From the NCBI RefSeq assembly GCF_000026545.1, contig NC_011601.1: a stretch of DNA of 64,000 bases, one strand, 5' to 3'. Positions 42,901 to 45,900 of this stretch are shown here, in pieces (position 1 is the first letter of the stretch; each line of letters begins with the position of its first letter). Made by a program: the position numbers. Origin of the DNA: Escherichia coli O127:H6 str. E2348/69. Its GTDB lineage: Bacteria > Pseudomonadota > Gammaproteobacteria > Enterobacterales > Enterobacteriaceae.

Positions 42901-45900
42901 TTGCTTTTTGCCGTCAGCACCCGGCAATCTTCCTCATTGCGTGATGCCTTCCAGCTTAATTTCTTTATTTGCAATAGTTGCAGCTCATATCCGGGCTGAC
43001 TCCAGACTAGTAGTGAAATGCGCAATTTTGTAGAATTGCGCCTCCTCGCGACCTCCCCAGTGAATCTGTTGCCTCATTTTTTACATACTGCGTATTCGAC
43101 TTCTCCACCTGTTGCGCAAGAGAAACTGGGTTTATTCATTTTTGCGAGGCCGACTTCTTTCTGGACAGGACTTTATGCAGCACAACACACTACCGAAACA
43201 CGATCAGAAATTGCCGTTTACACGCTACGACTTCGGCTGGGTTTTATTATGCATAGGCATGGCGATTGGTGCCGGAACCGTGCTGATGCCAGTACAAATT
43301 GGATTGAAGGGAATTTGGGTATTTATTACCGCAGCGATCATTGCTTATCCTGCCACCTGGGTAGTACAGGACATTTATTTAAAAACCCTTTCTGAAAGCG
43401 ATTCCTGTAATGACTACACCGATATTATCAGTCATTACCTGGGGAAGAACTGGGGAATTTTCCTCGGGGTTATCTACTTTTTGATGATTATCCACGGGAT
43501 TTTTATCTACTCTCTCTCCGTGGTTTTCGACAGCGCCTCGTACCTGAAAACCTTCGGTTTAACCGATGCCGATCTTTCTCAATCTCTATTTTATAAAGTC
43601 GCCATTTTCGCCGTACTGGTGGCGATTGCGTCTGGTGGTGAACGATTACTGTTTAAGATTTCCGGGCCAATGGTGGTGGTCAAAGTGGGGATTATTGTCG
43701 TGTTCGGTTTTGCGATGATCCCGCACTGGAATTTCGCCAATATAACCGCCTTCCCGCAAGCCTCCGACTTTTTCCGCGATGTCCTGCTTACTATTCCATT
43801 TTGCTTCTTTTCCGCAGTATTTATTCAGGTACTTAACCCAATGAATATTGCCTATCGTAAACGGGAAGCGGATAAAGTACTGGCAACCCGGCTCGCGCTG
43901 CGTACCCACCGGATTAGCTATATCACGCTCATTGCGGTGATCTTGTTTTTTGCCTTTTCGTTTACCTTCTCAATTAGCCACGAAGAAGCCGTTTCTGCCT
44001 TTGAACAAAATATCTCGGCACTGGCACTGGCCGCGCAGGTGATCCCTGGGCATATCATTCATATCACCTCTACGGTGCTGAATATCTTTGCCGTACTGAC
44101 TGCATTCTTTGGCATTTATCTCGGTTTCCACGAGGCCATTAAAGGCATTATTCTCAATCTGTTAAGCCGAATTATTGATACCAGGAAAATTAACTCACGC
44201 ATGCTGACTCTGGCGATCTGCGCTTTTATCGTCATTACGTTGACGATTTGGGTTTCGTTTCGTGTATCGGTGCTGGTGTTCTTTCAGTTGGGAAGCCCGT
44301 TATATGGCATTGTGTCGTGCCTCATTCCATTTTTCCTGATCTCTAAAGTTTCACAACTGAAAAAACTACGCGGGCTAAAAACATGGCTTATCCTGTTTTA
44401 TGGTATTTTGCTGTGCTTTTCGCCGCTATTGAAGCTGATTGAATAAAAGTAACGGGGGCTGCTCACAGCAGCCCCAGACGATGTCGATAGCATTGCAGCA
44501 CAGCCTGGATATGATCCTGAGTCATAAAGGACTGCTCATACGTTTCCATAACAATGGCATTTTCTTTACGTATATCCTGAAAGAGTTTTTCCAGCAATCT
44601 GGGCGCTAACCCCATTGATTCACCCAACAGCAAAAAGTCCTGCCCGATATACTCGCCATAATCACTGTGAAATCCAGGAGCCAGTTCCCGACCGCCTTCT
44701 TCTCGCGTCAATAACGGCAGCGCCAGATAGTTTGAGTAAAAATATTCCGGATAGGGAGCGACAGAAACAAAGTCATACACCGGCGCTAACGCAGGCGTCA
44801 AACCATCGGAGTACACTAAGCCAAAGTTTCGTAAATGCATGTCGTTATTACCCAGCAACCAGGCGTAAACAATGCGACGAAAGAGATCGATTTTAAATGC
44901 GATGTTGTCGTTAACATGGGCAACTAAAAATCGGGCCAGCGTTTCATAGCTGACATATTGTTCGTTATCATTCCCCGTTTTGCCATATTTATCTGTAATC
45001 TGCATCGCGCCATCAAGCTGTTCCTGATGCACTGGCAGCCCCTTGTTATCCCGGTCATAGCGCCGGATAACAAATGCGTATTCAAGCTCTTCCTCTGATT
45101 GTGGTGCAAAACTCAACAGGCCATGCACAGGTACGTCAAATCCCAAACGAGACATCAATGTCATTGTTGCGTGTTCATTTTCGGCCAAACCGGGAAAGTC
45201 GGCTGGAGAGGGCTTAAGGATAAAATTTCCCTGATGATCTACGACGCGGAACTCTCCTTCATCCAGCACTAATTGCAATTTGGGCTGGTAACCGGAAATA
45301 CTCATCCCTTTTTGTTGACGCGGAAGTTCCTGCACAAACTGAGTTCGCGTAAACCCCAGCCGAGGATTCAATTTTGCAGTGCCGCTCAGTCGCTTCAACC
45401 CCTGTGTCGAATATCCGCGCTGTTCGTCACGTTCATTCAACGGCGTTAACAGAATACGACAATTCGCCATTATTCCTCCCAAGGTAAAATCTGGATGGCC
45501 CCCAGCAGATTCTTGCCGTTATCAATAAGCATTCCCAGCAGATCGTTTTCGTCACGATGCTGTATCTGGCTGTAGCGTTGACGCAGCCATCCTTCTGGCG
45601 CCAGTGAGGCGAAATAAGGATGCAACGTCTCACTGGGAAACTGACGCTGTGCGACGGGCAGACTGATTGAGATTGCCGGTCCGTGGTAATCGTGGGCGTA
45701 CTGGAACAAAAAACCACTGTCGTTCTGAGAGAGTTCACCCACTACCTGACCATAGAGCAACACTTTCACTCGCCGATGCATAGTTTCACTCCAAGAACAT
45801 TCGCCACCGCGAACACACTGCCGAATTTAACCTGTTCAGGATCCTTAAAAAGTCGCTTTAACGTGGACGTTGAGATCCCCGTTTGTAGTTCAAGTGTGTA

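What the first reader, a model, noticed from the sequence alone, without database searches (positions are those of the whole stretch)
44447..44474. hipBST module abuts the yhjV terminator; hipT stop lies inside the hairpin
The yhjV stop (44444-44446) is followed by the hairpin GGGGGCTGCTCACAGCAGCCCC, and the hipT stop codon (TCA on the + strand) lies within that hairpin. The convergent genes are only 16 bp apart, which is what a compact insertion at an existing intergenic terminator would look like.
Basis: partly seen in the sequence, partly recalled or inferred. Interest (0 to 1): 0.4.

Follow-up and report, generated by a model that had tools for sequence, protein, structure and literature searches.

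The report
hipBST operon's own end hairpin
The hairpin next to the yhjV stop codon is real, but it belongs to the already-characterised hipBST toxin-antitoxin segment of E. coli E2348/69, which replaced the original yhjV/dppF terminator together with the ends of both neighbouring genes, so this is an ordinary accessory-gene junction.

Summary
The yhjV stop is at 44444-44446. A perfect 9-bp hairpin spans 44455-44475, the hipT stop (44463-44465) lies inside it, and the two stop codons are 16 nt apart.

The window is E. coli E2348/69, the strain in which HipBST was characterised. Strains without the module (5,261 of 5,421 matched complete genomes) carry a different, canonical bidirectional terminator (ACCGGAGCGCATGGCCCCGGTTTT) in a 29-nt yhjV-dppF gap. 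The hairpin is therefore carried by the module; it is not a pre-existing yhjV terminator. It looks terminator-like only in the hipT direction, and weakly.

The accessory block is about 1,986 bp (44343-46328), and its ends lie inside both flanking genes:
- The last 104 nt of yhjV are only about 80% identical to the E. coli allele, a genus-level divergence.
- The DppF tail is ...QKPAV* where empty strains have ...QR*.

There is no target duplication and no mobility gene. dppF-hipBST adjacency recurs in four other enterobacterial genera. The best reading is allelic replacement by recombination from a donor with the same gene order. The direction, gain or loss, is not fully settled. This is ordinary biology of low interest.

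The parts
43175..44446 (+). yhjV (serine/threonine-type HAAAP transporter gene), chimeric at its 3' end
   Evidence: RefSeq annotation of E2348/69. NCBIfam TIGR00814 at 1.6e-149.
44343..44446 (+). Divergent 3' block of yhjV that travels with the module; this is the left end of the accessory segment
   Evidence: All 17 fixed occupied-versus-empty differences in 1,260 nt of yhjV fall in 44343-44443. The block is 80% identical to K-12 and 81% to Salmonella, whereas the rest of yhjV is 98% identical to K-12. This 3' end type occurs in exactly the 160 module-bearing genomes.
44447..44462 (.). 16-nt spacer between the yhjV stop and the hipT stop. On the - strand, 44447-44454 (AAGTAACG on the + strand) reads CGTTACTT, the start of the T-containing tail that follows the hairpin and runs on into the yhjV stop (CGTTACTTTTATTCA). 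44455-44462 is the outer hairpin arm.
44455..44475 (-). Perfect 9-bp GC-rich hairpin containing the hipT stop codon. It is the module's own 3' stem-loop and a weak terminator candidate for the hipBST operon.
   Evidence: Absent from empty sites.
44463..45470 (-). hipT (HipA_C kinase toxin, 335 aa)
   Evidence: Matches PDB 7AB3 chain C over residues 1-335 at E = 3e-229. Pfam HipA_C. RefSeq coordinates.
45470..45781 (-). hipS (antitoxin resembling the HipA N-terminal subdomain, 103 aa); overlaps hipT by 1 nt
   Evidence: TIGR03071/Couple_hipA. The 1-nt overlap is also stated in PMC6581861.
45766..46089 (-). hipB (HTH_3 repressor, 107 aa)
   Evidence: HipB represses the hipBST promoter according to PMC10627512.
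46090..46277 (-). hipBST promoter/operator region: promoter-like TTGCCA-17-TAAATT at 46217..46189 on the - strand, plus several AT-rich palindromes of the type TCATATTTGA
   Evidence: Function is inferred; the operators were not tested.
46278..46305 (-). Second perfect hairpin (11-bp arms ATGAGATCAGC/GCTGATCTCAT), 8 nt after the dppF stop. It is part of the accessory segment and is probably the dppF 3' stem-loop.
   Evidence: It is conserved in Superficieibacter and in a cryptic-clade Escherichia, with one compensatory pair (T:A to C:G) and one G-U change that is compatible only with the dppF-sense RNA.
46314..46328 (-). Module-linked tail of dppF (stop plus codons K-P-A-V); this is the right end of the accessory segment
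   Evidence: Occupied alleles end ...ENPQKPAV* (337 aa) and empty alleles ...ENPQR* (334 aa). Homology with empty alleles resumes at 46329.
46314..47327 (-). dppF (dipeptide ABC transporter ATPase)
   Evidence: NF043071 at 5.7e-220. RefSeq annotation.

Best explanation
The hairpin is the 3'-terminal stem-loop of the hipBST operon itself. Its 5' arm (on the hipT mRNA) is the last three hipT codons (G-L-L). The stop codon spans the loop and the first base of the 3' arm. On the hipT strand the hairpin is followed by CGUUACUUUUAUU, so it can act at best as a weak intrinsic terminator or 3'-end protector for hipBST mRNA. It has no U-tract for yhjV.

The hairpin arrived as part of a block of about 1,986 bp (44343-46328). 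The block consists of a foreign yhjV 3' end, the hairpin, hipT-hipS-hipB, their promoter region, a second hairpin, and a foreign 4-codon dppF tail. In module-bearing Escherichia this block stands in place of about 139 bp of native sequence, including the native bidirectional yhjV/dppF terminator.

The most likely mechanism is homologous (homeologous) recombination with crossovers inside the 3' ends of the two flanking genes. The donor DNA would come from an enterobacterium that already had the order yhjV-hipTSB-dppF. The allele then spread or was lost within Escherichia (B2-like strains and cryptic clades) by ordinary flanking-homology recombination.

Shown: the anatomy, the junctions, the absence of the native terminator, and the linkage. 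Inferred: the recombination mechanism, the direction (gain), and the terminator function.
For: - Identity of the locus: the window is 100% identical to E2348/69, and HipT equals PDB 7AB3 chain C.
- Empty-site comparison: K-12 and ST131 THO-003 have yhjV-TAA, then 29 nt ACCGGAGCGCATGGCCCCGGTTTTGTGAG, then the dppF stop. This shares no similarity with the hairpin here.
- Near-isogenic ST131 pair (5392 with the module, THO-003 without): 21 mismatches cluster in the last ~105 nt of yhjV, and homology resumes at CTGCGG inside dppF.
- Left boundary: the 17 fixed occupied-versus-empty differences all lie in 44343-44443. The block is about 80% identical to E. coli and 81% to Salmonella.
- Linkage: the occupied-type yhjV end, the hairpin and the module are each found in the same number of genomes, 160, with one chromosomal copy each and none on plasmids.
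- dppF tail: KPAV* resembles Salmonella KPLS*, Citrobacter KTAI* and Superficieibacter KPGV*. E. coli empty alleles and E. fergusonii share QR* plus the native terminator.
- Synteny: dppF-hipB-hipS-hipT adjacency occurs in Superficieibacter, Enterobacter sp. ENT03, two Siccibacter and two Atlantibacter species. DNA homology with Superficieibacter runs past the dppF stop through the second hairpin.
- Terminator direction: the hairpin is called only on the - strand. Tail scores are 2.32 in the hipT direction and 1.56 in the yhjV direction, against 3.97 and 3.19 for the native terminator.
- Other genera: hipT there is also followed by its own GC-rich hairpin shortly after the stop.
- No 7-8-mer created as a target duplication, and no mobility genes.
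Against: - Terminator quality is marginal. The T-run is separated from the stem by CGTTAC. A ribosome terminating at the stop codon in the loop would cover the stem, which by general knowledge of ribosome-terminator interference should reduce termination. The generic scan finds no more terminator-like sites in the region than in shuffles (5 versus 4.3).
- The hairpin is invariant in every copy seen, so there is no covariation evidence for function.
- No donor was found. No HipT cluster is listed between the Escherichia cluster and 74% identity, either among GTDB species representatives or in the listed best hits of the 5.8-billion-protein search. None of the other genera with dppF-hipBST has yhjV next to hipT.
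- The direction is not proven. At the fixed sites the outgroups side sometimes with the occupied and sometimes with the empty allele. The 337-aa DppF tail is the common enterobacterial state. Within B2-like strains the module is as diverged as its flanks, which also fits long residence.
Confidence: 0.7

Rival explanations
1. A self-contained hipBST cassette was inserted precisely into the yhjV-dppF gap next to the pre-existing yhjV terminator. That terminator survives as the hairpin and now overlaps the hipT stop.
For: The module is compact, lies exactly between the two convergent genes, and sits 16 nt from the yhjV stop. It is absent from 97% of E. coli genomes.
Against: The pre-existing terminator in empty sites has a different sequence and is absent here; the hairpin here is absent from empty sites. 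The hairpin has no T-run on the yhjV strand. Its inner arm is hipT coding sequence, homologous to hipT of other genera. The boundaries lie inside yhjV and dppF. There is no target duplication.
Confidence: 0.04
2. The module and its junctions are ancestral to Escherichia, inherited in the syntenic dppF-hipBST position seen in other Enterobacteriaceae. The 'empty' allele (a different yhjV 3' end, the native-looking terminator and the shortened DppF tail) is the derived state. On this view it replaced the module by recombination and swept through most E. coli.
For: - dppF-hipBST adjacency occurs in five genera including Escherichia.
- The 337-aa DppF tail of the occupied allele is the common enterobacterial form, and QR* is unusual.
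- The protein motif RGLKTW in the occupied yhjV end matches Salmonella and Citrobacter, whereas K-12 has RGFKAW.
- The module is present in basal lineages (B2-like strains and cryptic clades) with the same junctions.
- Module divergence is about equal to flank divergence within B2.
Against: - E. fergusonii shares the QR* tail and the same terminator with empty E. coli.
- Between cryptic clades and E2348/69 the module is less diverged (about 3%) than its flanks (5-10%).
- There is no zone of elevated divergence on the dppF side of the junction (0 mismatches in the first 79 nt). An ancient balanced polymorphism would be expected to produce one on both sides.
- Frequency is low (2.9%).
- Salmonella and Citrobacter, which have yhjV next to dppF, lack the module.
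Confidence: 0.22
3. The hairpin has no transcriptional function. It is a by-product of how the hipT 3' end was joined to the DNA downstream of yhjV, for example an inverted duplication of the last 9 coding bases by template switching. It persists because its inner arm is coding sequence and the allele is young.
For: - HipT homology to all other genera stops exactly at the stop codon in the loop.
- 115 of 117 homologue clusters continue for 4-16 more residues (modal 8, xLDEPxL) that E. coli HipT lacks.
- The outer arm is an exact reverse complement of the last 9 coding bases.
- The U-tract is poor.
- There is no sequence variation with which to test selection.
Against: Perfect 9-bp GC-rich hairpins are rare by chance. 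Operon-terminal hairpins follow hipT in other genera too. The other end of the block also carries a conserved hairpin with a compensatory change, which suggests that 3' stem-loops matter at this locus. The hairpin is retained unchanged in lineages whose module differs by 3%.
Confidence: 0.2

Closest known systems
HipBST tripartite toxin-antitoxin system of enteropathogenic E. coli O127:H6 E2348/69 (Vang Nielsen et al. 2019, PMC6581861; Baerentsen et al. 2023, PMC10627512; PDB 7AB3-5)
   Same: It is this very locus. The window is 100% identical to E2348/69, and HipT matches 7AB3 chain C over its full length. The three-gene order and overlaps match the published description.
   Different: Nothing differs in the genes. 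The papers do not discuss the terminator, yhjV, dppF or how the module sits in the chromosome (0 occurrences of these terms).
Rho-independent (intrinsic) terminators, including bidirectional terminators shared by convergent genes
   Same: A GC-rich perfect stem-loop just after an operon's last gene, with a T-containing tail on the operon's strand.
   Different: The stop codon lies inside the hairpin. The U-tract is interrupted and displaced (tail score 2.32 against 3.2-4.0 for the native yhjV/dppF terminator). There is no U-tract at all in the opposite direction, so it is not bidirectional, unlike the native element it replaced.
Accessory 'islets' exchanged by homologous recombination in flanking core genes (allelic replacement, as at O-antigen or capsule loci; general knowledge)
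   Same: Fixed chromosomal position, no integrase, transposase or target duplication, breakpoints inside conserved flanking genes, and a SNP patch around the locus in a near-isogenic ST131 pair.
   Different: The block is very small (about 2 kb), and its left crossover left only 104 nt of foreign yhjV. The donor lineage is unsampled.
Excludon-type convergent overlapping transcription (ExcludonFinder, PMC12288877)
   Same: In K-12 the yhjV-dppF pair is listed among the excludons identified from RNA-seq coverage. In E2348/69 the convergent partner of yhjV is hipT, only 16 nt away.
   Different: There are no transcript data for the yhjV/hipT pair. Any overlap is inferred only from the missing U-tract on the yhjV strand.

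Membership tests
HipBST toxin-antitoxin system | Three co-oriented genes: an HTH protein (HipB), a small protein resembling HipA N-subdomain 1 (HipS), and a HipA_C kinase lacking that subdomain (HipT) | tested here: met
   Pfam HTH_3, Couple_hipA and HipA_C. NCBIfam TIGR03070 and TIGR03071. Gene order and overlaps.
HipBST toxin-antitoxin system | Sequence identity with the experimentally characterised HipT(O127) | tested here: met
   ORF residues 5-339 match residues 1-335 of PDB 7AB3 chain C at E = 3e-229. The window is 100% identical to the E2348/69 chromosome.
HipBST toxin-antitoxin system | HipT phosphorylates TrpS and is neutralised by HipS | not testable with these tools
   Taken from PMC6581861 and PMC10627512, for this same strain.
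Intrinsic (Rho-independent) terminator | Stable GC-rich stem-loop | tested here: met
   9 perfect pairs, 7 of them G-C, loop of 3 nt, -17.1 kcal/mol.
Intrinsic (Rho-independent) terminator | U-rich tract immediately 3' of the stem on the transcribed strand | tested here: inconclusive
   On the hipT strand the tail CGUUACUUUUAUU passes the lenient scan but scores 2.32, against 3.19-3.97 for the native terminator. On the yhjV strand the tail AGACGAUG scores 1.56 and no site is called.
Intrinsic (Rho-independent) terminator | Transcripts actually end there | not testable with these tools
   No transcript data are available here. Term-seq or 3' RACE is needed.
   Empty sites carry ACCGGAGCGCATGGCCCCGGTTTT instead. 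The hairpin region matches only the 160 module-bearing genomes.
Mobile-element or site-specific insertion | Target-site duplication, terminal inverted repeats, or an integrase/transposase gene | tested here: not met
   The only shared 8-mers (TCCTGATC, CTGATCTC, AAGCTGAT) either pre-exist in both flanking genes of empty alleles or lie inside the block, so they are not duplications made by insertion. The block holds no mobility gene. No plasmid copies were found.
REP/BIME or other dispersed repeat | Multiple copies in the genome | tested here: not met
   Unique in the 64-kb window with up to 3 mismatches. One place per genome in E. coli. No Rfam family matches.

The most novel reading that the evidence does not exclude
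The arrangement may be regulatory as well as historical, in two ways.

First, replacing the native bidirectional terminator left yhjV without a U-tract terminator. yhjV transcription could therefore run antisense into hipT, an excludon-like coupling of an amino-acid transporter to a tRNA-synthetase-targeting toxin. The hairpin that overlaps the stop codon would then act as a ribosome-sensitive terminator for hipBST.

Second, hipBST lies directly downstream of dppF on the same strand in five enterobacterial genera, behind a conserved hairpin with a poor U-tract. Read-through from the dipeptide-permease operon could tie toxin-antitoxin expression to peptide supply.
Probability: 0.1. Interest if true: 0.5.

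Novelty: already known. Interest (0 to 1): 0.15.

Why it matters
The matter is mostly one of correct annotation and history. The hipBST system here is the published type example, and the hairpin is an ordinary operon-end stem-loop. The junction analysis adds three small but concrete facts that the hipBST papers I checked do not mention:
- The module came, or left, as an allelic block that rewrote the last 35 codons of YhjV and the last residues of DppF.
- The block removed the native shared terminator.
- hipBST occupies the same place after dppF in five enterobacterial genera.

Anyone deleting or transplanting hipBST in E2348/69 should know that the flanking gene ends and both 3' hairpins belong to the block.

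Tried and rejected
- Target duplication or terminal repeats at the junctions: only short 8-mers that pre-exist in both genes of empty alleles. Rejected.
- Dispersed repeat or known RNA family: the hairpin is unique in the window, and no Rfam hit overlaps it. Only rdlD, STnc490 and weak sok hits occur elsewhere.
- Plasmid origin: no match in 72,556 plasmids, even in distant mode. The phage collection was not searched.
- Search for the donor. The GTDB species representatives gave a best non-Escherichia HipT at 74% (Superficieibacter), with no yhjV beside it. In the 5.8-billion-protein search nothing is listed between the Escherichia cluster and 73%. No donor was identified.
- More Escherichia outgroups through divergent YhjV clusters (P0012, P0019): these turned out to be ordinary empty-site E. 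coli with truncated yhjV calls, so they were uninformative. P0005 was Citrobacter-like, with a 337-aa DppF.
- Polarising the 17 fixed yhjV differences with E. fergusonii, Salmonella and Citrobacter: the outgroup states are mixed, so the result is not decisive.
- Covariation test of the hairpin: impossible, because it is invariant in all copies.
- My first L006 yhjV coordinates were off by 3 nt, so the L006 columns are meaningless. This was redone correctly.
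Full report
**What is in the sequence.**
- The yhjV ORF ends with TAA at 44444-44446.
- hipT, on the minus strand, ends with TGA (TCA on the plus strand) at 44463-44465.
- The two stops are 16 nt apart.
- GGGGCTGCT-CAC-AGCAGCCCC at 44455-44475 is a perfect 9-bp inverted repeat (7 G-C pairs) with a 3-nt loop.
- The stop codon spans the arm/loop boundary.
- The stem dominates the predicted fold on both strands and is worth -17.1 kcal/mol alone.
- Such hairpins are rare by chance: 16 nested hits at 8 sites in 64 kb, against 1.5 +/- 1.5 in Markov simulations.
- The 21-mer is unique in the window and matches no Rfam family.

**Identity of the locus.**
- The region is 100% identical to the E. 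coli E2348/69 (O127:H6) chromosome.
- The three minus-strand genes are hipB (HTH_3), hipS (Couple_hipA) and hipT (HipA_C).
- HipT matches PDB 7AB3 chain C end to end.
- This is therefore the published HipBST system: HipT phosphorylates TrpS, HipS is the antitoxin, and HipB is the repressor (PMC6581861, PMC10627512).
- Those papers and the Hip-kinase phylogeny paper (PMC8262856) say nothing about a terminator, yhjV or dppF.

**Comparison with strains that lack the module.**
- The module (44447-46313) is present in 160 of 5,426 complete E. coli genomes. It is always full length and always a single chromosomal copy. It is on no plasmid in PLSDB.
- 5,421 genomes match the flanks.
- In K-12 and in ST131 strain THO-003 the convergent yhjV and dppF stops are separated by 29 nt, ACCGGAGCGCATGGCCCCGGTTTTGTGAG. 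This is a hairpin with an A-run before it and a T-run after it, that is, a canonical bidirectional terminator.
- It scores far better than the hairpin under study. Tail scores are 3.97 and 3.19 for the native element, against 2.32 (hipT direction) and 1.56 (yhjV direction) for the module hairpin.
- The native terminator is absent from the occupied allele. The hairpin under study occurs only in the 160 module-bearing genomes.
- The pattern scan calls the hairpin terminator-like only on the hipT strand.
- It is therefore not 'the yhjV terminator' and not a pre-existing element.

**Where the junctions really are.** Strain 5392 (module present) and THO-003 (module absent) are near-isogenic ST131 genomes.
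- Their left flanks are identical for 15.6 kb, then show sparse SNPs, and then 21 mismatches packed into the last ~105 nt of yhjV.
- On the right, homology resumes at CTGCGG inside dppF, with no mismatch for 79 nt.
- Three occupied alleles (E2348/69, ST131, a cryptic-clade strain) were compared with two empty alleles. All 17 fixed differences in 1,260 nt of yhjV lie in 44343-44443.
- That block is 80% identical to the K-12 allele and 81% to Salmonella. The rest of yhjV is 98% identical to K-12 and 76% to Salmonella. The block is as diverged as a different genus.
- The occupied-type yhjV end occurs in 160 genomes, the same number as carry the module, and no scar alleles were seen.
- On the other side, DppF ends ...ENPQKPAV* (337 aa) in occupied alleles and ...ENPQR* (334 aa) in empty ones.
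- The accessory block is thus about 44343-46328 (1,986 bp) and replaces about 139 bp.
- There is no target duplication, no terminal inverted repeat and no mobility gene. The only shared 8-mers already exist in both genes of empty alleles.

**Where the block came from.**
- Among GTDB species representatives the nearest non-Escherichia HipT is 74% identical (Superficieibacter). No cluster is listed between that and the Escherichia cluster in the 5.8-billion-protein search.
- Even so, dppD-dppF-hipB-hipS-hipT is the gene order in Superficieibacter, Enterobacter sp. ENT03, two Siccibacter and two Atlantibacter species.
- In Superficieibacter and Enterobacter ENT03 the bcs cellulose genes lie just downstream of hipT; in Siccibacter bcsG lies about 1.9 kb beyond it.
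- DNA similarity between E2348/69 and Superficieibacter continues past the dppF stop through a second hairpin and a conserved GTCAAATATGA motif.
- DppF tails of the KPxx type are the rule in Salmonella, Citrobacter and Superficieibacter. The QR* tail plus the native terminator is shared by empty E. coli and E. fergusonii.
- I therefore favour import of the block by homeologous recombination from an unsampled enterobacterium that already had yhjV-hipTSB-dppF, with crossovers in the 3' ends of the two flanking genes.

**Spread within Escherichia.**
- All five occupied E. coli genomes sampled have B2-like flanks, about 99% identical to E2348/69, and the module is as diverged as the flanks.
- Three cryptic-clade Escherichia loci carry the same junctions and an identical hairpin. 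Their module is 96-97% identical to E2348/69, and their flanks 88-95%.
- The SNP patch around the locus in the ST131 pair marks a recombination tract of 9 kb or less.

**Why the direction is not settled.**
- Outgroup states at the 17 fixed sites are mixed.
- The occupied allele keeps the commoner DppF tail and the RGLKTW motif of YhjV.
- An ancestral module displaced by a foreign 'empty' allele therefore remains possible. I give it about 0.2.

**What the hairpin most likely does.**
- On the hipT mRNA its 5' arm is the last three codons (GGG CUG CUG), the stop lies in the loop and 3' arm, and the tail is CGUUACUUUUAUU.
- hipT in other genera is also followed by its own GC-rich hairpin within 10-30 nt of the stop. 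An operon-end stem-loop is thus the norm, and this is the E. coli version pushed up against the coding sequence.
- It is a plausible weak terminator or 3'-end protector for hipBST, not for yhjV.
- The evidence is anatomical only. The hairpin is invariant in every copy, so covariation cannot be tested, and I have no transcript data.
- HipT homology with all other genera stops exactly at this stop codon. 115 of 117 homologue clusters carry 4-16 further residues (modal 8, xLDEPxL) that E. coli HipT lacks.
- The outer arm may therefore be a by-product of the event that joined hipT to the DNA after yhjV. That is kept as a rival explanation.

**Consequences and the speculative reading.**
- In the occupied allele yhjV has lost its canonical terminator and faces hipT across 16 nt.
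- In K-12 the yhjV-dppF pair is listed among the excludons identified from RNA-seq coverage (PMC12288877).
- yhjV read-through antisense to hipT, or dpp read-through into hipBST past the poorly tailed second hairpin, cannot be excluded and would be mildly interesting. Nothing here shows either.

**Verdict.** The module is a compact accessory segment at this site. The hairpin, however, is carried by the module, the native terminator was replaced, and the breakpoints are inside the flanking genes. The system is already known and the junction is ordinary, so interest is low.

Noticed in passing
window 46278-46305: A second perfect hairpin (11-bp arms ATGAGATCAGC/GCTGATCTCAT) lies 8 nt after the dppF stop, inside the accessory block. 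It is conserved in Superficieibacter and a cryptic-clade Escherichia, with one compensatory T:A to C:G pair and one G-U change that fits only the dppF-sense RNA. It is probably the dppF 3' stem-loop brought in with the module. Its U-tract is poor (score 2.73).
   Followed up: partly
window 46090-46277: The hipB upstream region is AT-rich. It has a promoter-like TTGCCA-17-TAAATT (46217..46189, minus strand) whose spacer holds a palindrome (GAGTTATATATGAGCT). Further palindromes of the TCATATTTGA type occur, and the repeat AAAAAGGTCA appears twice, 40 nt apart. Similar motifs recur upstream of hipB in Siccibacter, Atlantibacter and Superficieibacter. These are candidate HipB operators.
   Followed up: partly
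window 44463-44500 (HipT C-terminus): E. coli HipT (335 aa) ends at ...RLGLL. It lacks the C-terminal tail (modal 8 residues, xLDEPxL) present in 115 of 117 homologue clusters. Its nearest relatives (Superficieibacter) have a 4-residue tail.
   Followed up: partly
window 41323-42029: An IS200C copy (tnpA at 41427-41885, minus strand) is inserted between bcsG and the ldr genes. The Rfam STnc490 hit at 41895-42018 sits in its leader. The copy is absent from the ST131 and K-12 loci compared.
   Followed up: partly
window 42109-42867: There are two tandem ldr/rdlD type I toxin-antitoxin copies (rdlD at 42265-42330 and 42748-42813). Copy number varies between strains: one in K-12, two in E2348/69 and SC434, three in ST131.
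   Followed up: no
window 54782-60872: A segment of about 6 kb between eptB and yhjX encodes a chaperone-usher fimbrial operon (three fimbrial subunit genes, an usher of 859 aa, and a PapD-like chaperone). It is absent from the ST131 loci compared.
   Followed up: partly
L065 5315-6526 (E. fergusonii): E. fergusonii has a different gene in the same yhjV-dppF gap. It is a sigma-54-dependent activator, inserted between yhjV and the native dppF-side terminator. The E. fergusonii yhjV is itself only about 75% identical to E. coli's. The gap appears to be a recurrent site of gene turnover.
   Followed up: no
L005 15665-24787 vs L004 (ST131 strains 5392 and THO-003): Within ST131 the module is polymorphic. 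The two genomes are otherwise near-identical over 40 kb, but they differ by a patch of SNPs extending about 4.3 kb to the left and about 3 kb to the right of the module, as expected for a recombination tract that swapped the allele.
   Followed up: partly
L026 4352-5403 (Atlantibacter sp. RC6): An extra ORF of about 1 kb sits between dppF and hipB in this species. It contains a Fic-like motif (FFDGNKRTSR) by eye. It was not checked against any family library.
   Followed up: no
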